DNA of 64,000 bases from Dehalococcoidia bacterium (GTDB lineage: Bacteria; Chloroflexota; Dehalococcoidia; Lucifugimonadales; UBA3495): assembly GCA_965204715.1 (NCBI GenBank), contig OZ242009.1:244893-308892 (forward strand). The letters are read 5' to 3'. The position numbers were made by a program, and so were the translations under genes. The notes under the pieces were generated by a model that did no database searches, was not told where the DNA came from, and worked only from the letters and a program-made list of their open reading frames with translations. Numbering within the stretch: position 1 is the stretch's first letter; the number at the start of each line of letters is the position of its first letter. This document shows positions 2,361 to 48,477 of this stretch, in pieces.

Positions 2361-2806
2361 ATCGAACGCTCACTGCTCTACGGCATCCCGTGCCTGTTGC
2401 CGGTCAAAATCATGGTGGTATACTTCCCGCATCGTGGCCCGATGTAATATTCAATACGCGAAACGGCCGGCTCCGCCCTCGACCGGCAGTGTAGACGACA
2501 TGAGGCATATAGCCGTCCGTATGGCAGCTATTTGAGTTGTGTATGGATCGTATTAGCGTAAATTGCCCTCTGCATGAAGCTATCCTGCCCATTCCCCCTT
2601 CTTTCCATATTCCGGGGCATTGCAGTGAGCTGTTATCCGGGCTTGTTGCCACGGCTATGCTCCTGCCCTCGCCTCTGCCCACCGCAAGCACGTGTTCAAC
2701 ACAACCTTCCGGATCACGGTCAGCCCAATTACAAATGCCGCAGTGTTAATCGGGAACGCTCTTGGGAATTATGGCATCATCGCCTCGATAGAATGGAGGA
2801 ATCGAC

Positions 2807-3973
2807 ATGACGGTCCAGAGAGCCGCTACAACCCAAGACGAACTGCTCAGCGAGTGGCACAAGAAAGCGTGGCTCAAGCGATTGTTCCTGCCTGGGGATT
2901 TCCTGGAGCAGGTCAGCATGGACGGGGCAGAAAACATGGTATGTCATAAGACCACTATGGAATATCTGTCTATGATCGACCAGGTAGAGACAAAGACCGT
3001 CAAAGTTTCTGAATCCCGCAAGCACTCAACCGACGTGGATTACCGCCCGCAGGAATTCAAGGACGAGATCCTCAAAATCATTACCAACGCTGCGAAAGTC
3101 AAATGCGACAGTTGCTCCGGGAGAGGGAGGAGTACCTGCGGGAAGTGTTCCGGAGATGGGAAAGTCACCTGTGGCAAGTGTTCCGGGAGAGGCGAAGTCA
3201 ACTGCGATACCACAAAGAATTGCGGATCCTGCGGGGGAAGCGGCAAACGCCGGGAGAATTGCGGGTCCTGCGGCGGCAGAGGCAAACATGAGAGGAAATG
3301 CGGGACTTGCGGCGGCGGCGGCGTTACTGGCCGCGGCGGCAGCGGCGCCGGGCCGTGCTACTCTTGCGGCGGGAGCGGCAAACATAGCAAGGATTGCGGC
3401 AGTTGCAGCGGGGGTAAAGTCACCAGGAATTGCGGCCGTTGCAGAGGAGGCAAAGTGACTTGCGACCGGTGCGGCGGGAGGGGCAGCGTTGGTTGTAACC
3501 GCTGCAACAGGAGCGGCATTCTGACCTGCAACCGGTGCAACGGGAGCGGCAGCGTGGTCTGCGGCACATGCGATGGGGCAGGCGAGCTGGTGAAGGGGGA
3601 TATCATCACCAGGAAATTTTCATGCTCAACGGACCTGACGTACCGGTTATCCGGGCTGGCCGCCAATGAGTTCAAGAACGGGCTGGCGGCCAAACACTTC
3701 GAGTCCGTAACCGGGGACCTGGTGCAAGAGGAATTACAGACCCCCGCCAGCAACGATATTGTGTTACAGCGGCAGACTGTCCACTCCTATGACGTGCTTT
3801 CGCACGGCTACTCCTACAACGGTGCGGAGTTCCGGTTAAACCGGATAACCACCGGCAACGGCTTGAAGTACGTCGCCTTGGGTATGCCCTTTTCCAAGAC
3901 CAGGACTGCCATAGCTGGCGCTGTATTCTTTGTTGCTGCGGCGGCAGTCTCAGCCCTATTGATATTTCTCTAA
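2807..3973 (+). CDS. tail-anchored protein with an array of 13 CxxC (DnaJ cysteine-rich-domain-like CxxCxGxG) zinc-finger motifs
   Basis: GGAGGA lies 6 nt before ATG 2807. Residues ~100-265 contain CDSC, CGKC x2, CGSC x3, CGTC x2, CYSC, CGRC, CDRC and CNRC x2, mostly followed by xGxG. The C-terminus is the hydrophobic AIAGAVFFVAAAAVSALLIFL. Confidence 0.75.
   Translation: MTVQRAATTQDELLSEWHKKAWLKRLFLPGDFLEQVSMDGAENMVCHKTTMEYLSMIDQVETKTVKVSESRKHSTDVDYRPQEFKDEILKIITNAAKVKCDSCSGRGRSTCGKCSGDGKVTCGKCSGRGEVNCDTTKNCGSCGGSGKRRENCGSCGGRGKHERKCGTCGGGGVTGRGGSGAGPCYSCGGSGKHSKDCGSCSGGKVTRNCGRCRGGKVTCDRCGGRGSVGCNRCNRSGILTCNRCNGSGSVVCGTCDGAGELVKGDIITRKFSCSTDLTYRLSGLAANEFKNGLAAKHFESVTGDLVQEELQTPASNDIVLQRQTVHSYDVLSHGYSYNGAEFRLNRITTGNGLKYVALGMPFSKTRTAIAGAVFFVAAAAVSALLIFL
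3218..3334 (+). repeat. three tandem 39-nt coding repeats inside the zinc-finger array
   Basis: Units begin at 3218, 3257 and 3296 (aattgcggatcctgcgggggaagcggcaaacgccgggag / aattgcgggtcctgcggcggcagaggcaaacatgagagg / aaatgcgggacttgcggcggc...). They encode NCGSCGGSGKRRE, NCGSCGGRGKHER and KCGTCGGGG. Confidence 0.7.
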
Positions 3974-4010
3974 GCGGCGTCCGGCGCTTTGGCGAAATGA
4001 GGCCTAAAGG

Positions 4011-4129: not shown

Positions 4130-4996
4130 ATGCCATATACTGCCGACATCAGCCGGGCCAACCCCGCCTGCTTCCTTTTCCTGATCGACCAGTCGGGATC
4201 GATGGAACAGGCATTGTCCGGCCAGCCCGGTTTTCGCAAGATGGACCAGGCGGCAATCGCGCTCAACGGCATCCTCAACGCCCTGTCACTGCGCTGCTCC
4301 CAGGGCATGGAGGTGCGAGACTACTTCCACATCGGCGTAATCGGCTACAATACCGACAGCTCCGGAAATCCAACGGTGCGAAGCGCCCTCCAGGGCACGT
4401 CCCCCGATTCGCCCTTCCTCCTGGTCAGCCAGGTGGTTGACCTCGCAGAAGTCGAAGACCGGCAGGTCAAGGAACCCGACGGCGCGGGCGGCCTGGTGGA
4501 AGTCACCCGGAAAGTGCCCGTCTGGTTCCACCCCCACGCCCAGTACGGCACCCCCATGTGCGAGGCTTTGGGGGATGCCGCCGCAGCCTTGCGGACCTGG
4601 ACCGGCGAATATCCCGACTCCTTCCCGCCCATAGTGATCAACATCTCCGACGGCATGGCCACCGACGGAGACCCGCAGGCCCCGGCAGACGAGATAATGG
4701 GGCTCGGCACCTCCGACGGCAACACCCTGCTCTTCAACATCCACCTTTCCGAAACGGCGGCAGTGCCCATCCAGTACCCCGACAGTGAGGATGGCCTGCC
4801 CGACGAGCACTCCAGGACGCTGTTCCGCATGTCCTCGGTGCTGCCTGAGTCCAGCCGGAGCATGGCCGTCACCCTGGACCTGTCGGTGAACGAGAACTCC
4901 CGCGGCTTCGTCTTCAACGCCAACATGGAGTCGCTGGTGCAATTCCTGGACATCGGCACCCGAGGGCCTTCCAACGCGCCTTCCGATCTGCACTGA
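4130..4996 (+). CDS. TerY-like von Willebrand factor A (vWA) domain protein, paralog 1
   Basis: N-terminus MPYTADISRANPACFLFLIDQSGSM carries the MIDAS DxSxS motif. The downstream MIDAS Thr (YGTPMCEAL) and Asp (NISDGMATDGD) are also present. No signal peptide. Confidence 0.8.
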   Translation: MPYTADISRANPACFLFLIDQSGSMEQALSGQPGFRKMDQAAIALNGILNALSLRCSQGMEVRDYFHIGVIGYNTDSSGNPTVRSALQGTSPDSPFLLVSQVVDLAEVEDRQVKEPDGAGGLVEVTRKVPVWFHPHAQYGTPMCEALGDAAAALRTWTGEYPDSFPPIVINISDGMATDGDPQAPADEIMGLGTSDGNTLLFNIHLSETAAVPIQYPDSEDGLPDEHSRTLFRMSSVLPESSRSMAVTLDLSVNENSRGFVFNANMESLVQFLDIGTRGPSNAPSDLH

Positions 4997-5055
4997 CAGC
5001 CAGGGGCAGGGGCGCCCTGCCAGCCACCAGCCACCGGAGAGGAGGAGAGCCGGAC

Positions 5056-6003
5056 ATGCCATACACCGCCGACATCAGCCGGGCCAATCCCAGTTGCTTC
5101 ATGTTCCTGGTTGACCAGTCCTACTCCATGGAGGGAGCGCTGGCAGGCCAGCCGGGGCAGCACAAAATGAACGCTGCCGCCGACACGATAAACCGAGTCC
5201 TGGAGAGTCTCACCCTGCGCTGTTCCCAGGGGATGGACGTTCGTGACTACTTCGACATCGGTATCCTGGGCTACGGCTGTGAACAGAAGGCGGAATACGA
5301 CCCGAATCAAGTCTACGGTTACCTGGATGCAAACGAGGTGTATCACGAAATACCACATGCCCAGTTGGACAAAGACAACCTCGTCGAATGCGTAGTAATC
5401 AGCGCCCTTCCTGGGACCACCCTGGAACAGCCCTTCCTGCCCATCAGCAGGGTGGTGGAAGTGGCCGAAATGGTGGACCGGCAGGTGAGAGAGAGCGACG
5501 GCAGAGGAGGAACAACCGAAGTAACCCGCAAGATGCCCGTCTGGTTACGGCCTCATGCCGGGGCGCAAACCCCGATGTGCGAAGCTCTGGCCCACGCCGG
5601 ACAGGCCATCGAACGATGGATCTCCCGGCACCCCGACTCCTTCCCCCCTGCCGTTATCAACATCAGCGACGGCGAGGCCAACGACGGCGACCCTGAGCCT
5701 GTGGCCCAGCAGATCATGGGCCTGCAAACGTCCGATGGCAACGTACTGATGTACAACTGCCACCTGTCCGAGTTGGCGGCAATGCCCATCCAATACCCCG
5801 ACCGGGAGGACGGCCTGCCCGACCAGTTCGCCCGGAGCCTGTTCCGCATGTCGTCGGTACTGCCCGATTCCATCCGGGGACTGGCGGCAACCCTGGCCCT
5901 GCCGGTCAGGGACAACTCCCGCGGCTTCGTCTTCAACGCCGACATGACTGCCCTGGTGCAATTCCTCGACATCGGCACCCGCGGCCCTTCCAACCTGCAT
6001 TAG
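5056..6003 (+). CDS. TerY-like vWA domain protein, paralog 2 (with ~30-aa insertion)
   Basis: MPYTADISRANPSCFMFLVDQSYSM (DxSxS), AQTPMCEAL and NISDGEANDGD. Collinear with paralog 1 except for an extra segment, EQKAEYDPNQVYGYLDANEVYHEIPHAQLDKDNLVECVV. Confidence 0.8.
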   Translation: MPYTADISRANPSCFMFLVDQSYSMEGALAGQPGQHKMNAAADTINRVLESLTLRCSQGMDVRDYFDIGILGYGCEQKAEYDPNQVYGYLDANEVYHEIPHAQLDKDNLVECVVISALPGTTLEQPFLPISRVVEVAEMVDRQVRESDGRGGTTEVTRKMPVWLRPHAGAQTPMCEALAHAGQAIERWISRHPDSFPPAVINISDGEANDGDPEPVAQQIMGLQTSDGNVLMYNCHLSELAAMPIQYPDREDGLPDQFARSLFRMSSVLPDSIRGLAATLALPVRDNSRGFVFNADMTALVQFLDIGTRGPSNLH

Positions 6004-6078
6004 GGACGCGGGTCCTCTGCACGGCGGAGGGCCGGAGCAGCCGTGGAGGATCCACGTTTCAGAAATTGAGAGGCATCT

Positions 6079-6852
6079 ATGGAACTGCGAGGTCTCAGAA
6101 CACTCTGGATGGCCAAAGCCGGCAATCGCCCGGAAGAATGTGAAGACTCCTACGCCTTCGACCCTCTGGCCTGCCGCGTGGGTTCAATGGGCGTTAATAC
6201 CGCCAGGATCGCGGTTTCCGATGGGGCCAGCGAGTCGGCCTTTGCCCGGAGCTGGTCGCAGGTCCTGAGCCAATCATTTATCGACAGGCCCCTGGACCTG
6301 TCAGGCATCGGCCAGGACGCCCTGGAAAGCTGGCTCGCTCCAGGCCAGCAGGCATGGGACGCAACAGTGCCCTGGGACCGCATCCCCTGGCACGGGGAGG
6401 CCAAGGCGCGGGCCGGAGCGCTGGCGACACTGCTCGGTCTGACCATCTCCCCGGCGGGCGCGGGGGCCCTGTCCTGGCAAGCAGTTGCCATAGGCGACTG
6501 CTGCCTCTTCATAGTCCGCGACGGCAAGTTGCTCCGGTCCTTCCCCCTCGACGATGCCGCCCAGTTCAACAACACCCCGGTCCTGATTTGCAGCAACCCG
6601 GCCAATAACCGGGGCCTTGGCGGTCACGTCCGGCAGGAACGGGGGGACTGCGCCCCCGGAGACCTGTTCCTCCTGGCCTCCGACGCCCTGGCCTGCTGGA
6701 TGCTGGAGGACCACGCCCAGGGCGGCAGCCCCTGGGACACCCTGCTGGCCTTGGACTCCCACCAGGCTTGGGAAGAATGGGTCAACACCCAGAGGCAAGA
6801 ACGCATAATGAAGAACGACGACACCACGCTGGTTGTTGTAGAGGTGGAGTAA
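6079..6852 (+). CDS. PP2C-family Ser/Thr protein phosphatase
   Basis: Acidic metal-binding motifs appear in PP2C order: PEECEDSY, AVSDGASES, ASDAL and a C-terminal KNDDTTLVVVEV. Its position between the vWA and kinase genes matches TerY-P triads. Confidence 0.7.
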   Translation: MELRGLRTLWMAKAGNRPEECEDSYAFDPLACRVGSMGVNTARIAVSDGASESAFARSWSQVLSQSFIDRPLDLSGIGQDALESWLAPGQQAWDATVPWDRIPWHGEAKARAGALATLLGLTISPAGAGALSWQAVAIGDCCLFIVRDGKLLRSFPLDDAAQFNNTPVLICSNPANNRGLGGHVRQERGDCAPGDLFLLASDALACWMLEDHAQGGSPWDTLLALDSHQAWEEWVNTQRQERIMKNDDTTLVVVEVE

Positions 6853-6873
6853 CAGAAAAAGTGAGGTGAGCTT

Positions 6874-8274
6874 ATGGCCTGGCCGCCGCCTGTTGACTTC
6901 AGGGACGCCGTCCAGAACCCCCAGAATTGCTTCGAGGTCCAGGATCTGGCCCAGGGGGCCACTGCGGTCACCCGCATGGGCACCCCGGTAGTCTGGTCGG
7001 GCAACTTCGCCTGCGTGTTCAAGGTGGCCACCCCCGGCGGCGACGTGGCCGTGCGCTGCTTCACCCGGGAGGTCAGGGACCAGCAGCAGCGCTACGGCCA
7101 TTTGAGCGAATACCTCGCCGGAGTCAGGCCGGGGTTCCTCGTGGGCTTTGAGTACGTGGAGCGGGGGATCAGGGTCAAGGGCGACTGGTATCCCATAGTC
7201 AGGATGGAGTGGGCCGAGGGAGACCGGCTGGACAAGTTCATCGAGGGACATCTAAACAGGCCGGACGTCATCATGGGTCTGGCCGCCAGTTGGCGCGGCG
7301 TAAACGGCGGGCTCCGGGGCCTTGAAATCGCCCACAACGACCTTCAGCACGGCAACGTCATGGTCCAGGAGCAGGGCGGCCTCCACCTCGTCGACTACGA
7401 CGGCATATACCTGCCCCGGTTCGAGGGAGAGCCCAGCCCCGAGATCGGCCACCGGCACTACCAGCACCCCAGGAGGACAGACCGGGACTACCATGCGGAG
7501 ATCGACAACTTCCCTTCCCTGGTCGTCTACCTGACCCTGATGGCCCTGGGCGTAGACCCCCAACTCTGGGACAGGTTCTACAACCAGGAAAACATGCTCT
7601 TCACCAGGGATGACTTCGCCGACCCCGCCAACTCCGATTGCTTCAAAGCCTTGAAGTCCAGCCCCGACGCCTACGTCGCCGAGCTGACCGGCATACTCGA
7701 AGGGTTCTGCTCCCAACCTGTGGAACAGGTGCCCCGGCTGGAGAACGTCCTGCGCGGCGTTACGGCCTCTCCGCCAACAGCGTCCACGTCCGCACCGGCA
7801 CCCGCGCCTGCTCCCGCTCCGGCGCCACCCGCACCCGCGCCCGGCGCTCCCACGGCTCCTCCATCATCAGCGCCTGCACCTCCACCTGCGCCACCTATCC
7901 CGCCGTCGTCATGGCCCGCGCCTGCACCGCCACCTCCGCCAGCGCCAGCGCCGCCTGTGCCCCCGTCGTCACGGCCCGCGCCACAACCGCCGCCCGTTCC
8001 CGGCGCTCCGGCGCCGCCCCCGCTTCCGCGGCCACGGGTCCCGTCAGCTTCGTCGCCAGGTCCGGGGGGACTCTTCGAAATGGCGAGAGAGTCCAACAAG
8101 CCGATATTTATCCTGGCTGGTCTCTGGCTCTTCTGCGCCATGCTGGGATCGTTTCTGCCCTTCTTCGGGGGGTTCGGCCTCATAGTCTTACTGGCGCTGA
8201 TTTGCGCCATCTGCTACAGAATACGGCCGGTACGTGAATGGATTGGCGACCGTTTAAGCAATCTCAGGAGATGA
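6874..8274 (+). CDS. Ser/Thr protein kinase-like protein 1: kinase domain + Pro-rich linker + C-terminal TM hairpin
   Basis: Catalytic loop [13 protein letters not shown] and DFG-equivalent [10 protein letters not shown]. The beta3 position reads VAVRCF (Arg, not Lys). About 90 aa of the linker are PA/PP-rich. The C-terminus PIFILAGLWLFCAMLGSFLPFFGGFGLIVLLALICAICYRIR forms two TM helices. Confidence 0.75.
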   Translation: MAWPPPVDFRDAVQNPQNCFEVQDLAQGATAVTRMGTPVVWSGNFACVFKVATPGGDVAVRCFTREVRDQQQRYGHLSEYLAGVRPGFLVGFEYVERGIRVKGDWYPIVRMEWAEGDRLDKFIEGHLNRPDVIMGLAASWRGVNGGLRGLEIAHNDLQHGNVMVQEQGGLHLVDYDGIYLPRFEGEPSPEIGHRHYQHPRRTDRDYHAEIDNFPSLVVYLTLMALGVDPQLWDRFYNQENMLFTRDDFADPANSDCFKALKSSPDAYVAELTGILEGFCSQPVEQVPRLENVLRGVTASPPTASTSAPAPAPAPAPAPPAPAPGAPTAPPSSAPAPPPAPPIPPSSWPAPAPPPPPAPAPPVPPSSRPAPQPPPVPGAPAPPPLPRPRVPSASSPGPGGLFEMARESNKPIFILAGLWLFCAMLGSFLPFFGGFGLIVLLALICAICYRIRPVREWIGDRLSNLRR

Positions 8275-8366
8275 CCAGCCCCGCGAACGGCGTCGAGTCA
8301 GACCGGCCATCGGGAACGCGGTCCCCCGGCGAGGGGGATGGCGTTCCGGAGAAAGCGAGGTGAGCC

Positions 8367-9689
8367 ATGGCACAGCCAACCAGGTCTCCAGCGCCCGCAT
8401 CAGCGCCTGCGTCGAGTAGTGGAGAAGACCTCGGCAACCAGTTCCTCCTGAGCGGCAAGTTCATAGCTGCCCTGTTTGTGACCGCCCTCATACTCGCTGC
8501 GCTATCTTTCTTCGCCGACCTATTCGGGCCGATTTCCCTCATAGTCCTTGCGTTGGCGATTTGCGCTCTCTGTTACAGGTTGAGACTCGCCATGAGGTTC
8601 CTGATATGCGCCCTGGTGCTGGCCGGTATAAGCCTTTACGTGGCCAGACCCATGCTGTCGGAGACCTTCTACGATGTGGGTTTGAAAGTCCTGAGTTCCT
8701 ACGGCGACCCCGGTGAGAGAGCAATCTGGCCCGACCCGGCCAGGAGGGACCTGCCGGACACGGTCGTCACAGAAGTCCCATACGGCGACGGCTTGCAGGG
8801 CTTCGACACCACCACCGCGGAAGGCAGGGTTGGGGCGATCTCGGGCCTGAAGTATGAAACGGGCGCAAGATACCTGGGGTACGCCGCTGCCGCACTACTG
8901 TTTACCGGGCTGGTCATTGCCTGCCTCGGCACAGCCTTGAGGCTGCTGGGAGTTACCAGGGAGCCGGCAGCGGCACCGGCATCCACGTCCAGCGCGTCGG
9001 GACTGTTCAGCAAGATTGGTCGAGACGTCAGGGTGGGGCTGGCCATGGTGGCCATCGGGTGGGTATTGTTCCTGGTCGGCGGGCTTCCGCAAGATATCTT
9101 CAATGGGTCACTCCCAGGGGGCGTGGACTATCTCAGAGGGGAGGGCATAAATTCGGAAGCCGCGCATCTATTCTGGCCAATGATGATACTCGATAAAGTC
9201 CAGTATATGGGTGGCGCACTCATTTGGATGGGGATTGCCTTCTCCTTCTTCCCATTGGTTAGAAGAGCATGGAGATGGGCCTGTTCAAAACATGACCACT
9301 ATTACAGAAAACTGGGATTTGCATTGGTGGCGTTCGGGACCCCAGTAAGTGTTTTCTCTCTGAATGTTCTGCCGGCGTTGATCATCCCAACGGTCCGGGA
9401 AACCGCGGCCCCGCCCGGCGATTTCATGTTTCTTTCCAGCTTCACCTACTACCCAGAGTGGCTCAGGACAAGTATGTCAATCATGGACATTCTGGGGCCG
9501 GCATGCATAATCGCCGGGATTCTCTTTATCCTGTTCGGAGAAAACACTCTGCCCTGGATTTGTAAACTTATAGCAAAATACTTTAGCTCCTGGTTCGCCT
9601 CGCCCGGTCGTCCGTCAAGTTCTGGTTCCCCCAGCAGCAGCGAAAGAGACAGCGGGCCGCCTACCCTATTTGACGGCAGGCCACGCTGA
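8367..9689 (+). CDS. polytopic membrane protein of unknown family, paralog P1 (~8 TM, Ser-rich C-terminal tail)
   Basis: 440 aa with a Pro/Ser-rich N-terminus and about 8 hydrophobic helices. Conserved blocks shared with P2 include ETFYDVGLKVLSSYGDP, LFWPMMILDKVQYMGGALIWMG, IPTVRE and WLRTSMSI. The tail is PGRPSSSGSPSSSERDSG. Confidence 0.6.
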   Translation: MAQPTRSPAPASAPASSSGEDLGNQFLLSGKFIAALFVTALILAALSFFADLFGPISLIVLALAICALCYRLRLAMRFLICALVLAGISLYVARPMLSETFYDVGLKVLSSYGDPGERAIWPDPARRDLPDTVVTEVPYGDGLQGFDTTTAEGRVGAISGLKYETGARYLGYAAAALLFTGLVIACLGTALRLLGVTREPAAAPASTSSASGLFSKIGRDVRVGLAMVAIGWVLFLVGGLPQDIFNGSLPGGVDYLRGEGINSEAAHLFWPMMILDKVQYMGGALIWMGIAFSFFPLVRRAWRWACSKHDHYYRKLGFALVAFGTPVSVFSLNVLPALIIPTVRETAAPPGDFMFLSSFTYYPEWLRTSMSIMDILGPACIIAGILFILFGENTLPWICKLIAKYFSSWFASPGRPSSSGSPSSSERDSGPPTLFDGRPR

Positions 9690-9714
9690 TCATAGGCGTT
9701 CTCGGAGGTAAGCT

Positions 9715-10947
9715 ATGGACCAGCCAACTAACCCGCCGACCCCCGCACCGACGCCTTCACCCGCATCACCACCTGAGACCGAGTCCGTTACGTTTTGGCC
9801 TCGCGGACTAATCTGTATCGGGGTCGGGATCATACTTATGATATTGGCCCCGATTGTGCAGGCGATCACGGGAAGTCTAGTCCTCCTATTCGTTAGCCTG
9901 ATAATCTTCGCCGTGGGATACTGCGTTGTCTCTTTCGATTTTAGACTGGTCCCCAGGCTGTTGGTGTTGGCCGTTATGGGAATTGCAATCATCTCTTTTC
10001 TGTCCACATTATTCCTGGGGGAAGTCTTCTATGATGCGGTGCTTAAAGTCCTGAATTCCTATACCGACCCGGTGCAAAGGGAGTTTTTGCCAGACCCAGA
10101 GCAAGCAGAGGCGGCGAAAGACATGCCCTTTGGTGTCGAGTCCAAATCTGAAATGGGTTCTCAACTCCTGGAGTTCACCGGGTACATATCCTTTGCGCTC
10201 GGAGTCATCGTTACTTGTCTTGGCGCATTGCTCAAATTTGCAGGCAAGTTTCGCGGGGTAATCGGAGTTGGACTGTCAATGATAATTATTGGCCTGTTCC
10301 TGCTTCTCACCCCCGCGCTTCCGCAGTACATCCTGGATGAGGTTCTCAGAGAAGGCACAGGTTATTCGAATGGGGCAATCAGCCCTAACTCCCCGGTCCC
10401 GTGGTTGTTCTGGCCGCTTTTCGCCCTTGACAAGGCATCGTACGTAGGCGGCGTAATCATGTGGCTTGGGGTATTCATCCTCATATTGGGCCTGATCGAC
10501 CGTCTGATCAACAGAAGGGGAGAGGATGCCGAGGTCAAGAGGCTGGGCCTGGCGTTATTCGCAATTGGAACACTCGGAGGCATCTTCCATTTTTATGTTC
10601 TGGAGGATTTCCTTATTCCAACTGCCCGGGAAATCGGAATTGCCGCGATACCGGGATGGCTCAGAACATCCATAAGCATCCTGGGCTACACGTGGTGGAT
10701 ACCCACATTGCTTGGGACCATATTCTTCATCGCAGGAATCAGGACCATGCGCAAGATTGGCTCTGCCGCAGAAAAAACCCTGGGCGCCATACATGACCAT
10801 ATTCCCGAACCATCTCCATCAAGCGGCGCGTCTTCCGAGAGTAGCAGCAGCAACGAGTCACCAGTCCCTGGAGGCGCCATCCAGGAAGCCAACAGAGCCG
10901 CACGTCGAGGCAACAGGGGCAGACGTGGCGGCGGTAGAGGCAGATAA
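9715..10947 (+). CDS. polytopic membrane protein of unknown family, paralog P2 (Ser-rich then Arg/Gly-rich tail)
   Basis: 410 aa. Blocks shared with P1 include EVFYDAVLKVLNSYTDP, LFWPLFALDKASYVGGVIMWLG, IPTARE and WLRTSISI. The tail is PSPSSGASSESSSSNESP...RRGNRGRRGGGRGR. Confidence 0.6.
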   Translation: MDQPTNPPTPAPTPSPASPPETESVTFWPRGLICIGVGIILMILAPIVQAITGSLVLLFVSLIIFAVGYCVVSFDFRLVPRLLVLAVMGIAIISFLSTLFLGEVFYDAVLKVLNSYTDPVQREFLPDPEQAEAAKDMPFGVESKSEMGSQLLEFTGYISFALGVIVTCLGALLKFAGKFRGVIGVGLSMIIIGLFLLLTPALPQYILDEVLREGTGYSNGAISPNSPVPWLFWPLFALDKASYVGGVIMWLGVFILILGLIDRLINRRGEDAEVKRLGLALFAIGTLGGIFHFYVLEDFLIPTAREIGIAAIPGWLRTSISILGYTWWIPTLLGTIFFIAGIRTMRKIGSAAEKTLGAIHDHIPEPSPSSGASSESSSSNESPVPGGAIQEANRAARRGNRGRRGGGRGR

Positions 10948-11082
10948 CCACATGACACAGTCGAGACCGACCCCGGCTCCTGTGCTGTGGACCCAGGAAC
11001 TTGCAATCAGCAGCCATAAGGCTACTCTAAGCGTTGTGGCATTCCAGCAGCACACGGGAGTCCCAGACCCAGGAGGTTGAAC

Positions 11083-12396
11083 ATGGCCTGGCCCGCGCCC
11101 ACTGATTTCAGGGATGCCGTCCAGAACCCCGAGAACTGCTTCGAGGTCCAGGACCTCGCCCAGGGAACGGCTTCGGTTACGCGCATGGGAACGCCGATGG
11201 TCTTCTCGGGCAACTTCGCCTGCGTGTTCAGGCTGGAAACCCCTGGCGGCAACGTGGCCGTGCGCTGCTTCACCCGGGAGGTGAAGGACCAGCAGGAACG
11301 CTACGGCCACCTCAGCTCCTACCTCGCCGGAGTCAGACCCGAGTTCCTCGTGGGTTTCGAGTACGTTGAACGGGGCATAAAGGTCAAGGGCGACTGGTAT
11401 CCCATCGTCAGGATGGACTGGGCCGAGGGGGACCGGCTGGACAAGTTCATTGGAGACCATCTGGACAGGCCGGACATCTTCATGGACCTGGCCGCCAGGT
11501 GGCGGGGCGTGAACGGCACCCTGCGAGGGCTGGGAATCGCCCACAACGACCTGCAGCACGGGAACGTTATGGTCCAGGAGCAGGGCGCGCTCCGCCTGGT
11601 CGACTACGACGGCATCTACCTGCCCCGGTTCGAGGGGGAACCCAGCCCCGAGATCGGCCACCGGCACTACCAGCACCCGAAGCGGACTTCCCAGAACTAC
11701 TATGAGGGCATAGACAACTTCCCCTCCCTGGTGGTCTACCTGACCTTCCTGGCGCTGCGGGCTGACCCTCAACTATGGGACAGGTTCTACAACCAGGAAA
11801 ACATGCTCTTTACCAGGGAAGACTTTGCCAACCCCGCCAACTCGGACTGCTTCAAGGCACTGAAGAGCAGCCCCGATGCCAACGTTGCCGAATTGACCGC
11901 CGTGCTAGAGGGACTCTGCTTTCAGCCCGTGGACCAGGTCCCTACCCTGGAAGAGGCTCTTCGCGGCGTCACCGTTGCCCCGTCAAGCGCGCCAGCCCCT
12001 CCGTCCCCGTCGAATGCGCCTGCTCCGCCCGCGCCGGCTCCCGCACCTGCCCCTCTGCCGTCCGCGCCCGCGCCGTCGGCGGGGTCTTCGTACCGGGACC
12101 TGCTCCAGTCCGGCCAGGCTGCCGCACCCGCATCACCCCCACCCGCGCCTCCATCATCAGCGCCCGCTCCGCCGCCGACGCCCACGCCGCCGCCTGCTCC
12201 CGCGGGCCCGGTGCTGGTTTGCCCCGGCTGCAACCGGACGAGCTCCACGGAGCATATATACTGCGGCTACGAAGACTGCGCCGCCGTGCTCCTTCCAGGG
12301 AGAAAGACCTGCAACGGCTGCAATTCCTCGATTCCGCTCAACGCCTACTTCTGCCCCGACTGCGGTGTCAATCTGGCGGCACCCGCCTCTATATGA
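11083..12396 (+). CDS. Ser/Thr protein kinase-like protein 2: kinase domain + Pro-rich linker + C-terminal double zinc ribbon
   Basis: AGGAGG lies 6 nt before ATG 11083. About 83% identical to kinase 1 over ~299 aa by manual alignment, with the same [13 protein letters not shown] and VAVRCF. The C-terminus is CPGCN...C..EDC...CNGCN...CPDCG. Confidence 0.75.
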
Positions 12397-13484
12397 AGTG
12401 CCCAACCTGCCAGTCCGTAGTACCAAGCACGGTCAGGTTCTGCGCTTATTGCGGGGCCGGGATTCTGGCGGCTCCGCCGTCTCCCGCTGCCCGACGGTCT
12501 GGGTTGTTCGGTTTCCTCTGGGCGCACAAGGCGCTGAGTTTCTTCTTCGGTCTCGGGTCCTTGCTGCTGATTGTGGCGCTGTTCTACGCGATGAATACGG
12601 GAGATGAGGAACCGGCAATGGCCTTGGCGCTGCCGCCCCCGACTGCCACCGCCGAGCCTGCCCCTGAGCCGGCAATTATACCTACGGAGACACCGGTCCC
12701 GACGGTTGGGCCGACAGAGGCTCCCGTGCCGGCAGTTGTGCCAACGGATACTCCGGCGCCGACAGCCACGCCCATTCCTACGCCCGAGCCGACGGAGACA
12801 CCGGTCCCGACAGTAACCCCAACCCCGAGTCCGACACCCATCCCAGCCGCGACTCCGACGCCTACGCCGGTCCCAACGGCGACGCTGATTCCGACAAATA
12901 CGCCGAGGCCGACGGCGACACCAGTCCCGACGGATACGCCTCAGCCAACGCCAACACTTCGTCCAACAGCCACCCCGACGCCCACGCCGCGTCCAACGCC
13001 CACACAGGTCCCGTGGAAGGACCACACCGGTAAGGGCGATAAGTGGGGCTACACAGTGGAAATCCCTGGAAACTGGAGGTCTGCGCGGGGCGGAAAGCAA
13101 GCAGAGTTGCGCTCTTCTGATGGCCGGGCTACCCTTACAATTAGCGTCAAGGACTATCCCGAAAAACTACCGCCGCAGCAGTTCGCCGAGGAGCACCGGG
13201 CCTCGCTGATCGCCAAATATGCCTATGATGCAAATTTTTTCAACATCCTGGGCTTCCGGGGAGTCCCGCTGGACGGCCACCAGTGGTTCCGGTTGTCGTG
13301 GCGCTTGCAGCAGAAGTCCGACTCATGTGTGCTGGACATCACCGACCTGGTCTCCCGTTCCCGGAACTTCCCCGGCTGGGACCAGGGGTATATCCTGAGC
13401 TTCCGGGTGTGCGATGAACATCTTCCCGCACATCTGAAGGACCGCAAGCGGATCCTGGACAGTTTCCGGGAACTCGCTCCATGA
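12393..13484 (+). CDS. zinc-ribbon / single-TM / Pro-Thr-rich linker / C-terminal globular-domain protein
   Basis: ATG 12393 overlaps the kinase-2 stop (ATGA). Sequence [21 protein letters not shown], then TM helix [21 protein letters not shown], then ~120 aa of PT-rich linker, then ~150 aa of non-repetitive C-terminus. The upstream part of track ORF 11775..13484 is a shadow frame. Confidence 0.65.
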
Positions 13485-13715: not shown

Positions 13716-13841
13716 ACGCCGGGGTATGTAAGCCGGGCCGGGCTCGCCGCCCGTTACCAACGGCGGGGCATGTTGGTGTCCTTATCGAGAGGTCTCCGCC
13801 CACGCGGGGGCAATTAGGGTGGTAACGCGGGAACTCGTTGA

Positions 13842-13871
13842 GTCTCGTCCCTAGAGGGGCGGGGCTTTTTT
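13842..13871 (+). terminator. intrinsic terminator of the T-box leader
   Basis: gtctcgtccc / taga / ggggcggggc gives a 10 bp stem (3 G-U pairs), followed by tttttt. Confidence 0.75.
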
Positions 13872-25544: not shown

Positions 25545-26378
25545 CTAGAGGTCCACGGGACGCAGGAACGTCATGTCTCCCTTGCGCTCCAGGTAGCCCG
25601 CGCGGACGTCATGCCCGTGAGAGAAGACCAGCAGCCATCCATCTTTCTCCGCACGACCCGATATTTCGCGCTTCTGCTCCAGGGTCACCTCCGGCGACCG
25701 GTCGAAGGCGGAGATTACCGGCAGATTCAGGTGGTGCGGCGTGGGCACGATGTCCCCCAAGAAGACTACCCGCTCGCCGCCGTGATTGAACATTACCATC
25801 TGGTGTCCCTTGGCATGTCCATCGGTAACGGCGACGTTCAGGCCCGGGAGAATTTCGGCGTCCCCGTTCAGCATCGTCAGTTGGCCGCGTTCCTGGATCG
25901 GCGCGAAGTTGTCGACACGGTGGCCGACGTGGCACCTCTCGTTGGGATTACATGCCTCGTCCCAGCAAGTCTCCTGCACGTAATACTGGGCCTTGGGGAA
26001 GGTCGGGGCCAGATTGCCGGCACGGTCCAGGCGGGTACAGCCACCGCTGTGGTCGAAATGAAGATGAGTGAGAATTACTGCATGTATGTCCTTGGGACCC
26101 AGACCCAGTCCCTTAAGCCCCTTCAGGAGCCTGCTGGGGACCAGGCCCAATTGCTCCCTGTCCTCGATAGCCGCTTCCTTGGAACCTACGCCGGTATCTA
26201 CCAGAATGTTCTGCCCGCATACCTGGAGCAGCAGGCAGTTCAAGCCCAGAGTCATCCGGTTCTTCCGGTCGGTGACCACTGAGCCTTCCCAGGCAACCTT
26301 GGGCACCTGCCCGAACATTGAACCTGCGTCCAGCTTAATCACACCATCGCTTATCACCTTTACAGCTGTCGACATCAT
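25545..26378 (-). CDS. MBL-fold metallo-hydrolase
   Basis: ILTHLHFDHSGG (HxHxDH motif). The likely start is ATG 26378 (MMSTAVKVISDG). Confidence 0.75.
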   Translation of the reverse strand: MMSTAVKVISDGVIKLDAGSMFGQVPKVAWEGSVVTDRKNRMTLGLNCLLLQVCGQNILVDTGVGSKEAAIEDREQLGLVPSRLLKGLKGLGLGPKDIHAVILTHLHFDHSGGCTRLDRAGNLAPTFPKAQYYVQETCWDEACNPNERCHVGHRVDNFAPIQERGQLTMLNGDAEILPGLNVAVTDGHAKGHQMVMFNHGGERVVFLGDIVPTPHHLNLPVISAFDRSPEVTLEQKREISGRAEKDGWLLVFSHGHDVRAGYLERKGDMTFLRPVDL

Positions 26379-26807
26379 CTTAAACACCCAAACCCTTCTG
26401 CGAATTTTAGCTTGTCCCTCGCCTTCCTCGAAGCTGCTTCCGTCAAGGGCCCGGTTAAGATGGATGACGATAACAGGGTTGCCGCCGACAATCTTGGAAA
26501 GAAGACAGGCCCATGCCAGGAACGTAGCCTCGAAGCTCATCGCGGGCGGGGTTGGAGCCGGTTGGGACTCATTGGTCCCGGTATATATGTCTCTCGACCA
26601 CCTCCTTTCTTCCCGTCTCTAAAAACACTGGGGTTGCACTCCCCCACTCCAACCCAACTGGGTATTAAGGATACGGGGTCGAAACTGGTGGCTGTCAAGA
26701 CTTTTTTACAGCAATTTTATACTAATTTCAAAATTAGACCAAATAATTGGATGTCAGACCGGCAGTGTTCCGTTTTAGGTGGTGTGGTCAACCGGCGGCG
26801 GCCGGAG

Positions 26808-26829
26808 CATTCCAGACCCCGCGGGAATG
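26808..26829. repeat. degenerate copy of the palindromic element (CATTCC-agaccccgcg-GGAATG)
   Basis: Shares the outer arms and the gcgggaat half with the 20-nt palindrome. Followed by a second hairpin, gggcggt-aataag-accgccc. Confidence 0.4.
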
Positions 26830-26884
26830 AGGGCCGGGCGGTAATAAGACCGCCCAAATCGCAACACTGAGCGCGTCGCCCGGG

Positions 26885-28585
26885 TTACCCCTGCTGCGAC
26901 TGCTCGATCCTGGCCCAGCTATCGCGCAAGGGGACTGTGCGGTTGAATACCAGTCTTTCGGGGGCGGAGTCCATCGTATCGACGCAGAAGTAGCCCTGTC
27001 TCTCGAACTGGTAGCGGCTTCCCGGCACGGCCCCGGCAAGGCTGGGCTCGACTTTGCACCCGGTCAGGACCTCCAGCGAGCCGGGGTTCAGGTCGGCCTT
27101 GAAGTCCCTGCCGTTTTCCTCGCTGCCCGGCGCCGGTGAGTTGAAGAGAGTTTCGTAGAGGCGGACCTCAGCATCCACGGCGTGTGCCGCCGAGACCCAG
27201 TGCAACGTGGCGCGCACTCTGCGTCCGTCGGGTGAGGAACCACCCCGGGACTCAGGGTCATAGGTGCAATGCAGTTCGACCACTTCCCCGGTCGACTCGT
27301 CCTTCACCACGTCAACGCAGGTGATGTAGCAGGCGTAGCGCAATCGCACCTCGCGGCCCGGGGCCAGGCGGAAGAACCGTCGCGGCGGGTCCTCCCGGAA
27401 ATCGTCCTTCTCGATGTAAATGACCCTGGAAAAAGGCACCCTGCGAGAACCCATTGCAGGGTCCTCCGGGTTGTTGATGGCGTCGAACTCCTCTTCCTCG
27501 CCTTCCGGATAGTTGTCGATGACAACCTTAAGGGGATTCAGGACAGCCATGACTCTGGGCGCTCTGAAATTCAGGTCTTCCCGGACGCAGTTTTCCAGTT
27601 GCCCCAGGTCCACCAGGGCGTTGCGCTTGACGATGCCGGTCCCATCGACGAACTTGCGGATGGCCTCGGGCGTGTAACCACGCCGGCGCATGGCCGACAG
27701 AGTGGGCATACGCGGGTCGTCCCAGCCGGAGACGTAACCCTCATTCACCAGTTGCAGCAGCCTTCGCTTGCTCACCACCGTATGGCTGACATTCAGGCGG
27801 GCGAACTCTATCTGCTGCGGGTGGTATATGTCCAGTTCGTCCAGGAACCAGTCGTAAAGCGGCCTGTGGTCCTCAAATTCCAGGGTGCAGATGGAATGGG
27901 TGATTCCCTCGATGGAGTCGGACTGGCCGTGAGCGAAATCGTAGGTCGGATAGATGCACCATTTGTCCCCGGTGCGGTGGTGCGATTCGTGGAGTATCCG
28001 GTACAGCACCGGGTCGCGCATGTTCAGGTTGGGCGAAGCCATGTCGATCTTGGCCCGCAGCACCCGCGCGCCGTCCTCGAACTCGCCCGCCTTCATCCGC
28101 TCGAACAGGTCCAGGTTCTCCTCCACCGAGCGGCCCCGGTATGGGCTGTTCCGCCCCGGCTCGGTCAGAGTGCCCCGGTACTCCCTCATCTCCTGTGCTG
28201 GCAGGTCGCAGACGTAGGCTTTGCCCTTGCGGACCAGCGCGACCGCGAAGTCGTACAGCTGGTCAAAGTAATCGGAGGCGAAGTAAAGGTGTTCCCCCCA
28301 GTCCCAACCCAGCCAGCGGATATCCTCCATGATGGACTCGACGTACTCGGTGTCCTCCCGGCTGGGGTTGGTATCGTCGAAGCGCAGGTGACACCTGCCG
28401 CCCTCATACTCAGCCGCGATGCCGAAGTCTACCGCGATTGCCTTGGCATGGCCGATGTGCAGGTAGCCGTTGGGTTCGGGAGGAAAGCGGGTCACTATCC
28501 GACCGCCGAACCGGTTACTGGCCATGTGGCCGGCAATGATCTCATGTATGAAGTCAGAGGGGCCGGAGGATTCTTCGGAGGTCAT
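26885..28585 (-). CDS. glnS: glutamine--tRNA ligase
   Basis: [24 protein letters not shown]...RFDDTNP, with full-length GlnRS-like collinearity. Confidence 0.9.
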
Positions 28586-31897: not shown

Positions 31898-32539
31898 TTA
31901 CTTTAGAGCTTCCAGGAAGTACGCGCCCACACGGGAGGCTAACTCTCCCTCATGGCCGCCCCAGAAGTGGTCCGCTCCGGGCACGATGTGGCATTCGGGC
32001 CGCTTGGAAAAAGTATCCAGCGCGGCTGTCAGTTCCGCTGACCCGACGAGCTTGTCGCGGTCGCCCGAGATAAAGAAGGCGGAGCGTTTGCCTTTCCTCA
32101 ACGGTGTGCTTTCCAGGGCGCGCAGGGGTGGAGAGATCAGGGCCAGCGCCTTCGACTTCTTGTGCAGTTTCTCACTGCCCATAACTACGGAGGAACCGAA
32201 GGAGTAACCGGCCAGCCCGATCTTGCGGCCATCGACTCCGGGCCATGCTTTCATCAGGTCTATCGCCGCCAGGGTTTCCTGGTGTTCCAGTTCTCCCTTG
32301 GCGTGCTCCCCCTGGCTGTTGCCAACGCCCCGGAAATTGAACCGGATCACGGCCATTCCCTGCTCCGCCAGCGCGAACGCGATGTTGAGGACGACACTGT
32401 TGTCCATGTTGCCGCCGAACAACGGGTGCGGATGGCAAATCACAACCGCCGGAAACGGCCCGGCGATACCATCCGGCTGGGCAATCACTCCCTCGATATT
32501 CAGGCCCTCGGCTTCAAAGGAAACTGCGGTCTGGCGCAC
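31898..32539 (-). CDS. alpha/beta hydrolase-fold protein
   Basis: PAVVICHPHPLFGGNMDNSVV and GYSFGS (nucleophile elbow). Confidence 0.65.
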   Translation of the reverse strand: MRQTAVSFEAEGLNIEGVIAQPDGIAGPFPAVVICHPHPLFGGNMDNSVVLNIAFALAEQGMAVIRFNFRGVGNSQGEHAKGELEHQETLAAIDLMKAWPGVDGRKIGLAGYSFGSSVVMGSEKLHKKSKALALISPPLRALESTPLRKGKRSAFFISGDRDKLVGSAELTAALDTFSKRPECHIVPGADHFWGGHEGELASRVGAYFLEALK

Positions 32540-32722
32540 GTCGCTCGGCCTCCTGTAATGTCATTCCATCTTAGGAGAGGCAACCCCCCTTTGGCAACCT
32601 GGACTACCATGGCTACGAAATCCTGCCCGGAATGATGTTCATAGAGCGCAATTGTTCCTGCTCAGCCGCCTATGTTAGTGTTAGACGATGTACCAGCCCA
32701 TCTGCGCACCGGAGATTTCCAC

Positions 32723-33496
32723 ATGAGGTTAACCAGAATAATCACCGGAGTCATGATCGTTTCCGTCGCGCTGGTCCTGATTAGCGCACTGCTCAATTCA
32801 GTAGACGTAGTTGCGATAACCAGCGCCGTAGTCGGTAAGCAGAGTAACGGGTGGTCCGGTTCACTGGCGATACTGTTGGCCATAGCGGCGCTGGCCGTAT
32901 TCGTCTACGCCTCCCGGCGGTTAATTTGGAACTGGATAATTCGAGGCGCTTTGTTGGCATTAGGGGGAATAATTTTCGTCATTGCGCTTGTCGGAATGGC
33001 GGACAACTTCGTAATGAAATTGGGGGATGGACGTGACTTCACGTGGTCTCAGGGAAGTCCATTGGGACCAGGGGAAGCATACAGGGTAGTCCACGACACA
33101 TTCGCTGTAGTCGATGTTGACTTCATGCTGGTTATGATGCTGGTTGGGAGCATCGGAATTGCCGCTGCTGCCCTTTGGGGAGCGCTCAAGTGGGAGTCGG
33201 CCAAGACCCAGGAGATCAAGGACGAGGAGCTTCGGAGCATCCCCGATGAAGCTCTAGCGAGACTGCTGGAAGATGAATTGGGCCGTCCTCCCGGCTGGAC
33301 GCAGACTGCGGCCGGCGCTTCCGGCCAAAACGCGCCCCCGGTCCAGCCACCGCAGGCCCCAACTCCTCCGGGACCATCCAATCAGTCACCCGCCCCCACG
33401 CCGCAAGCCGGCGGACGCAGGCGCCATTGTCCGCGGTGTTGGACTGAACTGGAGCCGGGCGCGCAGTCCTGCGCCGCCTGCGGGGCGGGCCGGTGA
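32723..33496 (+). CDS. membrane protein with Pro-rich linker and C-terminal zinc ribbon (hypothetical)
   Basis: ATG 32723. Four or five hydrophobic helices, then a PPVQPPQAPTPPGP linker, then CPRCWTELEPGAQSCAACG. Confidence 0.5.
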   Translation: MRLTRIITGVMIVSVALVLISALLNSVDVVAITSAVVGKQSNGWSGSLAILLAIAALAVFVYASRRLIWNWIIRGALLALGGIIFVIALVGMADNFVMKLGDGRDFTWSQGSPLGPGEAYRVVHDTFAVVDVDFMLVMMLVGSIGIAAAALWGALKWESAKTQEIKDEELRSIPDEALARLLEDELGRPPGWTQTAAGASGQNAPPVQPPQAPTPPGPSNQSPAPTPQAGGRRRHCPRCWTELEPGAQSCAACGAGR

Positions 33497-47584: not shown

Positions 47585-47742
47585 ATCTATCCCGGCGCAT
47601 TCCGCGCCGCCAAACAAATTCAAGAGTTGGACACTCTTCAATATTCTACCACGGAGACGCCGCAGCATCCGGGAGTCTGCGGCGAGTGTTGAGGATATTG
47701 GGAGTTACAGGAAAGCCATGGGCCTTACCGCAAGAGGGCTTG

Positions 47743-48474: not shown

Positions 48475-48477
48475 GAC

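What the first reader, a model, noticed from the sequence alone, without database searches (positions are those of the whole stretch)
8367..10947. Two paralogous ~8-TM proteins of unknown family with Ser-rich tails and atypically low GC, wedged between the two kinases
P1 (440 aa) and P2 (410 aa) share several conserved blocks: E(T/V)FYD..LKVL.SY.DP, LFWP...LDK..Y.GG.I.W.G, IPT.RE and WLRTS.SI. I recognise no known domain in either. Both begin with Pro/Ser/Thr-rich segments. Both end in Ser-rich cytoplasmic tails (P1 PGRPSSSGSPSSSERDSG; P2 PSPSSGASSESSSSNESP, then RRGNRGRRGGGRGR). Such tails are plausible substrates for the adjacent Ser/Thr kinases and the PP2C phosphatase, but that is inference. 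Composition is atypical. Hand-counted lines give 28 of 60 GC at 9301 and 32 of 60 at 9841, against about 43 of 60 at 14101. This points to a different origin or different constraints.
Basis: partly seen in the sequence, partly recalled or inferred. Interest (0 to 1): 0.7.

Follow-up and report, generated by a model that had tools for sequence, protein, structure and literature searches.

The report
Swappable membrane module of defence kinases
Two neighbouring genes encode an undescribed eight-helix membrane protein family from Chloroflexota that is fused or adjacent to the kinase of a known anti-phage-type signalling cassette (TerY-P), and part of it is swapped between near-identical strains.

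Summary
P1 (8367-9689) and P2 (9715-10947) are real paralogues (32% identity, E 2e-38) with about 8 TM helices and Ser-rich tails. Their GC is the lowest of any 1.8-kb stretch in the window.

Neither protein matches Pfam, NCBIfam, PADLOC, PHROGs, PDB sequences or PDB/BFVD folds. The family is tiny: 38 representatives among 1.84 billion proteins. Every record that names an organism is Chloroflexota or Dehalococcoidia.

The neighbours form a TerY-P triad operon: two TerY vWA genes, PP2C, and two TerY-P-type kinases.

The link to the kinases goes beyond adjacency:
- In relatives, the same kinase is fused N-terminally to this membrane domain.
- STK1 in the window ends in a TM hairpin that resembles TM1-2 of P1.

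Charge alternation and the fusions both indicate N-in/C-in topology, so the Ser-rich/RGG tail is cytosolic. The most conserved residues lie in the outer loops.

A strain with 95-99% identical flanks has unalignable DNA at about 9000-10950. P1 itself is a chimera of two subtypes.

Best reading (inferred): an outward-facing sensor or scaffold module of a split receptor-type kinase, with a tail regulated by phosphorylation, sitting in a recombining cassette. Function is untested.

The parts
4130..4996 (+). TerY-like vWA protein 1 (MIDAS motif DQSGS)
   Evidence: PADLOC TerY E 7e-84. Weak Pfam VWA hit. Sequence.
5056..6003 (+). TerY-like vWA protein 2 (MIDAS motif DQSYS)
   Evidence: PADLOC TerY E 3e-81. 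Pfam VWA E 1.5e-5.
6079..6852 (+). PP2C-type Ser/Thr phosphatase
   Evidence: PADLOC PP2C E 5e-35. Pfam PP2C_2 E 3e-5.
6874..8274 (+). STK1: TerY-P-type kinase (aa 1-300), Pro-rich linker, then a C-terminal 2-TM hairpin (about nt 8101-8214) that resembles TM1-TM2 of the P1/P2 family
   Evidence: PADLOC STK_OB, model positions 1-299, E 1e-71. TM segments. Hairpin against the P1 N-terminus: BLASTP 35% over 60 aa, E 4e-7. Family HMM positions 33-76, E 9e-4.
8367..9689 (+). P1: 8-TM protein of the new family. It is a chimera with an A-type N-half (aa 1-246) and a B-type C-half. The tail is Ser-rich and ends PPTLFDGRPR.
9715..10947 (+). P2: second 8-TM paralogue. The tail has a Ser-rich stretch, a short helix (GGAIQEANRAARR) and an RGG/RGR C-terminus.
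9105..10895 (.). Low-GC, strain-specific replaced segment covering the P1 C-half and nearly all of P2
   Evidence: 53.2% GC, the lowest in the window, with GC3 about 0.60. No DNA similarity to locus L002, whose flanks are 95-99% identical.
11083..12396 (+). STK2: TerY-P-type kinase, Pro-rich linker and a C-terminal double zinc ribbon. The likely start is ATG 11083 (MAWP...), not TTG 11077.
   Evidence: PADLOC STK_OB E 2e-72. Pfam DZR. Start context.
12393..13484 (+). Zinc-ribbon, single-TM, Pro/Thr-rich-linker protein with a C-terminal globular domain. Its start overlaps the STK2 stop codon (ATGA).
   Evidence: Pfam Zn_Ribbon_1. TM. Sequence. Conserved in the syntenic loci.
13840..13867 (+). 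Terminator-like hairpin (12-bp stem followed by a T-run), the likely end of the operon
   Evidence: No comparable hairpin lies between the genes from 4130 to 13484.

Best explanation
P1 and P2 are tandem paralogues of an undescribed 8-TM membrane-domain family. So far it is seen only in Chloroflexota/Dehalococcoidia. It appears to be the membrane module of TerY-P-type Ser/Thr kinases.

Shown:
- Relatives encode one polypeptide with the cytosolic TerY-P kinase, a Pro-rich linker, this membrane domain, and a Ser-rich/RGG tail.
- In the window the arrangement is split. STK1 keeps only a TM1-2-like hairpin. P1 and P2 are separate genes in one operon with two TerY, PP2C, STK1 and STK2.

Inferred:
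- The topology is N-in/C-in.
- The conserved aromatic, proline and acidic motifs face outward. They would form a sensing or binding surface for an envelope or phage-derived cue.
- The cytosolic Ser-rich stretch next to a basic RGG end is the likely phospho-acceptor or docking element. The kinases would write it and PP2C would erase it. The phosphorylated tail might be read by the metal-site (MIDAS) vWA TerY proteins.
- The gene pair sits between two 83%-identical kinase repeats and behaves as a recombining cassette. The outer-loop-bearing C-half is exchanged between strains, which also explains the low GC3.
For: Fusions:
- P0018, P0019 and P0021 (772-795 aa) carry the kinase plus the family domain.
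- Their kinases match the TerY-P kinase model, E 1e-61 to 7e-66.
- A further fused copy lies in a Dehalococcoidia MAG.
- P0010 keeps a kinase N-terminal remnant, and P0014 has a J-domain in the same position.

STK1 hairpin: it resembles P1 TM1-2.

Synteny: the family genes lie between the two kinases in four genomes.

Operon: all genes are on the same strand with short gaps, there is one ATGA overlap, and a single strong terminator-like hairpin follows at 13840.

Topology: loop net charges alternate (-0.4, +0.8, -6.1, +0.9, -2.1, +2.7, -0.9), with +3.2 for the C-terminal tail.

Conservation: it is concentrated in the outer loops.

Tail: its architecture is conserved, including in the fusions.

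Cassette behaviour:
- DNA identity profile against L002.
- Chimera analysis.
- One to three family genes or fragments per locus.
- Transposases next to other family members.
- Low GC3 across loci.

TerY-P background comes from PMC11090510 and PMC7699616.
Against: - No experiment or structural analogue shows sensing.
- Four family members stand alone with no kinase within 8-10 kb, so the domain does not strictly need the kinase.
- The fused forms lack the large acidic outer loop (HMM positions 99-167), so that loop cannot be essential.
- Fused kinase-membrane genes occur without TerY or PP2C nearby. The proposed TerY read-out of the tail is therefore speculative.
- Phosphorylation of the tail is untested.
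- The AlphaFold models rest on only 21-24 sequences (pLDDT 77-78).
Confidence: 0.5

Rival explanations
1. P1/P2 are the effector. They would form a phosphorylation-gated pore or membrane-disrupting protein that the TerY-P kinases switch on to abort infection.
For: - The operon has no nuclease or other recognisable effector. The only accessory genes are membrane proteins.
- TerY-P clusters elsewhere carry effector modules (PMC4978471, PMC11090510).
- Heptad-spaced Gly pairs occur in TM4-8. From general knowledge, such motifs are reminiscent of tightly packed channel helices.
- A cytosolic Ser-rich tail could serve as the gate.
Against: - No channel or pore fold match was found.
- No conserved polar or charged residue lies inside the TM helices. 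Conservation sits in the outer loops.
- From general knowledge, known defence TM effectors are usually small 2-4 TM proteins.
- The only SLATT hit was E 0.014 in 1 of 21 members.
- Family members stand alone in housekeeping contexts.
Confidence: 0.2
2. There is no functional link. A mobile membrane-protein cassette happens to be lodged in a recombination hot-spot created by the duplicated kinase genes.
For: - Low GC3.
- Strain-specific replacement.
- Transposases beside several family members.
- Stand-alone copies in L005, L010, L012 and L015.
Against: - Independent kinase fusions fall in at least three clusters at 50% identity or less.
- STK1 has a family-like TM hairpin.
- The position is conserved in four genomes whose flanking DNA identity to the window ranges from about 77% to 95%.
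Confidence: 0.1
3. P1/P2 are an envelope-biogenesis or transport protein whose activity faces outward. It would be regulated by Ser/Thr phosphorylation rather than acting as a sensor.
For: - Conserved acidic and aromatic motifs in the outer loops.
- A polytopic architecture.
- Cytosolic regulatory tails.
Against: - No match to any transporter, GT-C, Wzy or TerC family, by sequence or by fold.
- The family is extremely rare: 38 representatives among 1.84 billion proteins.
- The halves are swapped between near-identical strains. That is unusual for a housekeeping enzyme.
Confidence: 0.1

Closest known systems
TerY-P (TerY-phosphorylation) triad (Anantharaman, Iyer & Aravind 2012; stand-alone anti-phage system in Gao et al. 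2020, as summarised in PMC11090510 and PMC7699616)
   Same: The surrounding operon has all three components: TerY vWA (two copies), PP2C, and the TerY-P-type kinase (two copies). STK2 has the C-terminal zinc ribbon described for the triad.
   Different: - The papers I could read and PADLOC list no polytopic membrane partner.
- The kinase OB-fold of the tested defence version is absent. Only positions 1-300 of the 562-position model match.
- STK1 ends in a TM hairpin.
- Two 8-TM genes sit between the kinases.
- In relatives the membrane domain replaces the OB-fold or zinc ribbon at the kinase C-terminus.
Bacterial receptor-type Hanks kinases (PknB/PrkC-like), from general knowledge
   Same: The fused relatives have an N-terminal cytosolic kinase, a linker, a membrane-spanning region, and outward-facing conserved elements.
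   Different: - The membrane part is an 8-TM domain of unknown fold, not a single TM followed by PASTA or other soluble sensor domains.
- In the window the kinase and the membrane part are separate polypeptides.
- The kinase belongs to the divergent TerY-P clade, with Arg in place of the beta3 Lys.
Transmembrane effectors of defence systems (SLATT and other 2-4 TM effectors), from general knowledge
   Same: They are membrane proteins encoded inside a defence-type signalling operon.
   Different: - No significant similarity. The only SLATT_6 hit was E 0.014 in 1 of 21 members.
- P1/P2 are much larger, with 8 TM.
- Conservation is in the outer loops, not in a pore lining.
Membrane-anchored J-proteins such as DjlA, from general knowledge
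   Same: One family member (P0014) has an N-terminal J-domain in place of the kinase. This suggests the membrane domain recruits or controls cytosolic signalling partners.
   Different: DjlA has a single TM and no homology to this family. Only one family member shows the J-domain fusion.

Membership tests
TerY-P triad (neighbourhood) | TerY-like vWA protein with a MIDAS motif | tested here: met
   PADLOC TerY E 7e-84 and 3e-81. DQSGS and DQSYS motifs are in the sequences.
TerY-P triad (neighbourhood) | PP2C-type phosphatase adjacent | tested here: met
   PADLOC PP2C E 5e-35. Pfam PP2C_2 at its gathering score.
TerY-P triad (neighbourhood) | TerY-P-clade Ser/Thr kinase adjacent | tested here: met
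   PADLOC STK_OB E 1e-71 and 2e-72 over model positions 1-300. HNDLQHGN and DYDG motifs align with the MEK1 catalytic loop and DFG motif.
TerY-P triad (neighbourhood) | Kinase C-terminal zinc ribbon (Aravind/CoCoNuT type) or OB-fold (Gao type) | tested here: inconclusive
   STK2 has a double zinc ribbon (Pfam DZR E 4e-4, below the gathering score). Neither kinase matches the OB half of the PADLOC model. STK1 has a TM hairpin instead.
TerY-P triad (neighbourhood) | Anti-phage or stress-response activity | not testable with these tools
   This needs experiments. The literature reports activity only for other members (PMC7699616).
Any curated protein family (P1/P2) | Significant profile match in Pfam, NCBIfam, PADLOC or PHROGs | tested here: not met
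   No hits at E up to 0.1 or 0.01. Scanning all 21 aligned members against Pfam gives only Pkinase and DnaJ from the fused parts. This covers TerC and the transporter families held in Pfam.
Any solved or viral predicted fold (P1/P2) | Foldseek or sequence-profile match to PDB or BFVD | tested here: not met
   P1 model (pLDDT 77.9): best PDB E 0.81, TM up to 0.23; BFVD best E 1.0. P2 model (pLDDT 76.8): best PDB E 0.41. Profile against PDB sequences: best E 0.26.
Receptor-type Ser/Thr kinase (works-like comparison) | Kinase and membrane or sensor part in one polypeptide, with the kinase cytosolic | tested here: inconclusive
   Met in the relatives P0018, P0019, P0021 and L013. In the window the parts are split between STK1 and P1/P2. 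Physical association was not tested.

The most novel reading that the evidence does not exclude
The P1/P2 family is a new-fold, outward-facing phage or envelope sensor. It gives TerY-P kinases a transmembrane input. Its outer-loop-bearing half is diversified by cassette recombination between tandem paralogues flanked by duplicated kinase genes, so the locus would act as a built-in specificity-swapping site for a bacterial immune kinase.
Probability: 0.2. Interest if true: 0.8.

Novelty: new variant of a known kind. Interest (0 to 1): 0.6.

Why it matters
How TerY-P triads sense infection and what they act on is not described in any paper I could find here. A membrane domain that is repeatedly fused to the TerY-P kinase occupies the position of the OB-fold or zinc ribbon. 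It gives a concrete, testable candidate for the input or docking side of this system.

It also defines a protein family and probable fold with no described relatives. And it shows a clear example of half-gene cassette replacement between strains whose flanks are 95-99% identical.

Tried and rejected
Searches that failed or added little:
- Alignment A1 could not seed a genome scan because it has no conserved 7-10 column stretch.
- The alignment-based word search A2 returned only 8 proteins and added one fragment, P0044. I suspect low-complexity Pro/Ser words filled the candidate list.
- The Anantharaman 2012 paper is not held, either by DOI or as PMC4104200. TerY-P background was taken from PMC11090510, PMC7699616 and PMC4978471.
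- P0020 is not on record for a context look-up.

Searches with negative results:
- No relatives in viral contigs, in the phage and plasmid collections or in PHROGs.

Ideas considered and rejected:
- Channel or transporter fold: no Foldseek support.
- TerC or another ter-operon membrane protein: no Pfam hit.
- SLATT effector: one hit at E 0.014, not significant.
- Low GC as a mere effect of membrane-protein amino-acid composition: rejected because GC3 drops as well.

Not pursued:
- The possible internal repeat TM4-5 versus TM6-7 (hhalign probability 76%, E 2e-5). TM composition bias can produce such a signal, so it is only suggestive.
Full report
**1. Observation**

P1 (8367-9689, 440 aa) and P2 (9715-10947, 410 aa) are intact + strand ORFs. 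Both have Shine-Dalgarno-like sequences upstream. They are paralogues: 32% identity, E 2e-38.

Hydropathy and AlphaFold2 helices both give about eight membrane helices. The P1 model has pLDDT 77.9 and pTM 0.67. The P2 model has pLDDT 76.8 and pTM 0.62.

The composition anomaly is real.
- 9105-10895 is 53.2% GC, the lowest 1.8-kb stretch of the window (mean 62.0%, sd 2.6).
- GC3 falls to about 0.60, against 0.78-0.89 in neighbouring genes. Amino-acid composition alone therefore does not explain it.
The line at 14101 is 47/60 rather than 43.

**2. Neighbourhood**

PADLOC models identify the following genes:

| Coordinates | Call | E-value |
|---|---|---|
| 4130-4996 | TerY vWA | 7e-84 |
| 5056-6003 | TerY vWA | 3e-81 |
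| 6079-6852 | PP2C | 5e-35 |
| 6874-8274 | TerY-P kinase (STK1) | 1e-71 |
| 11083-12396 | TerY-P kinase (STK2) | 2e-72 |

- The kinases match only positions 1-300 of the 562-position model. The OB half is absent.
- STK2 ends in a double zinc ribbon. This is the architecture described for TerY-P triads in PMC11090510.
- STK1 ends in a Pro-rich linker and a two-helix TM hairpin.
- A zinc-ribbon/TM/Pro-Thr-linker protein (12393-13484) overlaps the STK2 stop codon.
- One strong terminator-like hairpin follows at 13840.
- All genes are on one strand with short gaps, so a single operon from 4130 to 13484 is likely. This is inferred.
- TerY-P is reported to protect against T7-like phages (PMC7699616). 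It is proposed to be a metal-sensing phosphorylation switch (PMC11090510, citing Anantharaman 2012).

**3. The family**

P1 and P2 have no hit in any library searched:
- Pfam, NCBIfam, PADLOC and PHROGs.
- PDB sequences, best E 0.26.
- PDB folds, best E 0.81 and 0.41, TM below 0.25.
- BFVD.
- Viral contigs, phages and plasmids.

Word-based searches of 5.8 billion proteins gave 3 and 6 hits. An exhaustive profile search of 1.84 billion representatives gave 38 at E up to 1e-3, of which 21 are below 1e-30.

Every record that names an organism is Chloroflexota or Dehalococcoidia. The one NCBI name found is 'hypothetical protein' (MDE2780940.1).

**4. Link to the kinase**

- Three representatives (P0018, P0019, P0021; 772-795 aa) are fusions. 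Each has an N-terminal kinase, a Pro-rich linker, this membrane domain and an RG-rich or KG-rich end.
- Their kinases are the same TerY-P type, E 1e-61 to 7e-66.
- A further fused copy lies in a Dehalococcoidia MAG.
- P0023 is a fused fragment. P0010 keeps only the first 47 or so kinase residues ahead of the linker. P0014 has a J-domain in the same position.
- The fused genes stand alone, with no TerY or PP2C within the sequence available.
- In the window, the STK1 C-terminal hairpin resembles P1 TM1-TM2. BLASTP gives 35% over 60 aa, E 4e-7. The family HMM gives E 9e-4, and the same hit appears in L002 and L003.
- The P/S/T-rich N-termini of P1 and P2 look like the end of the fusion linker. 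This is inferred.
- In four syntenic genomes (window, L001/L004, L002, L009) the family genes lie between the two kinases.
- Four other members (L005, L010, L012, L015) have no kinase nearby.
- Overall, 8 of 12 distinct loci are kinase-linked.

**5. Topology and conserved features**

Net loop charge alternates across 15 aligned members:

| Region | Net charge |
|---|---|
| L1-2 | -0.4 |
| L2-3 | +0.8 |
| L3-4 | -6.1 |
| L4-5 | +0.9 |
| L5-6 | -2.1 |
| L6-7 | +2.7 |
| L7-8 | -0.9 |
| C-terminus | +3.2 |

Together with the cytosolic N-terminal fusion partners, this indicates an N-in/C-in topology with 8 TM. The Ser-rich tail and the Ser-rich 193-222 loop would then be cytosolic.

The most conserved positions lie in the three large outer loops:
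- Y102, D114, P115, R118, F120, W121, D123.
- Y255, R257.
- L268, W270, P271, L275, D276, K277.
- T342, E345, P363, W365, L366.

Heptad-spaced glycine pairs occur in TM4-8. No conserved charged residue sits inside the helices.

The fused forms lack the large acidic L3-4 loop.

The tail architecture recurs in about 15 of 22 full-length representatives, including the fusions. It has a Ser/Thr/Gly-rich stretch, then a short 'hGG(A/M)hxAxxxA' helix (predicted in P2 at 387-399), then an RGG/RGR or KGG end. P1 and P0009 share a different ending, '...DSGPPTxFDGRPR'.

**6. Cassette behaviour**

Locus L002 has flanking proteins 87-100% identical to the window: TerY 98%, PP2C 99%, STK1 94%, STK2 87%, ilvB 99.6%. 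It carries a single family gene that is only 58% identical to P1.

DNA identity in 150-bp bins against L002 (blastn blocks):

| Window coordinates | Identity |
|---|---|
| Up to about 8400 (lowest bin 90%, in the Pro-rich linker) | 90-99% |
| 8400-9000 | 79-95% |
| 9000-10950 | About 60% or unalignable |
| 10950 to about 11850 | 95-99% |

The replaced stretch coincides with the low-GC segment.

Segment-wise identities show that P1 is a chimera:
- Residues 1-170 are 81-85% identical to the P0006/7/8/L001_451 type. Residues 247-400 are only 32-36% identical to that type.
- Residues 247-400 are 82% identical to P0005, 59% to P0013 and 54% to P0009.

Locus content varies between genomes:
- L001 has both parental types in tandem, plus a 200-aa family-like fragment.
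- L009 lacks P1 and has a frameshifted P2-like gene.

Other features fit a mobile, recombining gene pool:
- The kinase domains that bracket the cassette are 83%-identical direct repeats.
- Family genes have lower GC3 than their neighbours in most loci examined.
- Several family genes sit beside transposases.

**7. Interpretation**

Shown: this is a new membrane-domain family that is linked, genetically and by fusion, to the TerY-P kinase. It sits in a strain-variable cassette.

Inferred: it acts as the outward-facing sensor or scaffold half of a split receptor-type kinase. Its cytosolic Ser-rich/RGG tail would be a phospho-regulated element, possibly docking the MIDAS-containing TerY proteins.

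Rivals:
- A phosphorylation-gated membrane effector. It is plausible because no other effector is visible, but there is no pore-like fold and no polar lining.
- An unrelated mobile cassette. The fusions and the STK1 hairpin argue against it.
- A regulated envelope enzyme or transporter. No family or fold supports it.

None of these can be settled without experiments.

**8. Novelty**

The operon is a recognisable TerY-P triad. The polytopic membrane partner appears in none of the libraries or papers I could consult. The same is true of its fusion to the kinase in place of the OB-fold or zinc ribbon, and of the half-gene swapping.

I classify it as a new variant of a known kind of system, built around a protein family and probable fold that are themselves undescribed.

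Noticed in passing
window 2807-3973 (+): A 388-aa ORF directly upstream of TerY1 has 10 CxxCxGxG (DnaJ-type zinc-finger-like) repeats and a C-terminal TM helix, and no Pfam hit. The stretch from about 2700 to 4000 has no counterpart in the syntenic loci L001, L002 or L009. It is somewhat low in GC (57.8%, GC3 0.71). It may be a strain-specific addition to the operon.
   Followed up: partly
window 6874-8274 and 11083-12396; P0018, P0019, P0021: Both kinases and the fused relatives have 'VA(V/I)RCF' where Hanks kinases have the beta3 VAIK lysine. In the MEK1 alignment the Arg sits one position before the Lys. The catalytic loop (HNDLQHGN) and the DFG-like DYDG are intact. Whether Arg substitutes for Lys is unknown.
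   Followed up: partly
window 12393-13484 (+): This protein has a zinc ribbon, a single TM, a long Pro/Thr linker and a globular domain of about 150 aa. It is translationally coupled to STK2 through an ATGA overlap and is conserved in the syntenic loci. Its linker length varies between strains. Its C-terminal domain has no Pfam hit.
   Followed up: partly
P1 residues 165-250 versus 272-345 (window about 8860-9400): There may be an internal duplication. TM4-5 aligns with TM6-7 (hhalign probability 76%, E 2e-5). Each of TM4-8 carries a G-x6-G heptad pair.
   Followed up: partly
L001 7780-8382: A 200-aa multi-TM ORF lies between STK1 and the first family gene. It starts MNQPTGP like family members. 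By eye it resembles the L6-7/TM7 region of the distant members P0016, P0026 and P0027, so it is probably a cassette fragment.
   Followed up: partly
L002 5002-5145: A 48-codon duplicate of the TerY1 5' end (98% identical) lies upstream of the intact TerY1, at the place where the window has the Cys-rich ORF. This looks like a scar of rearrangement.
   Followed up: no
L008 3787-8664; L014 1-1018 and 5569-7530: The fused kinase-membrane genes lie next to very large LRR (1625 aa) or ankyrin-repeat proteins and transposases. These regions look variable and possibly conflict-related.
   Followed up: no
window 26001-27000, 32001-33000, 47001-50000: These are other stretches of lowered GC (0.55-0.57 per kb). 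They were not examined.
   Followed up: no
L005 6461-7285: A fused nucleotidyltransferase-HEPN protein lies about 2.7 kb upstream of the stand-alone family member in Dehalococcoidia chromosome OZ241919.1.
   Followed up: no
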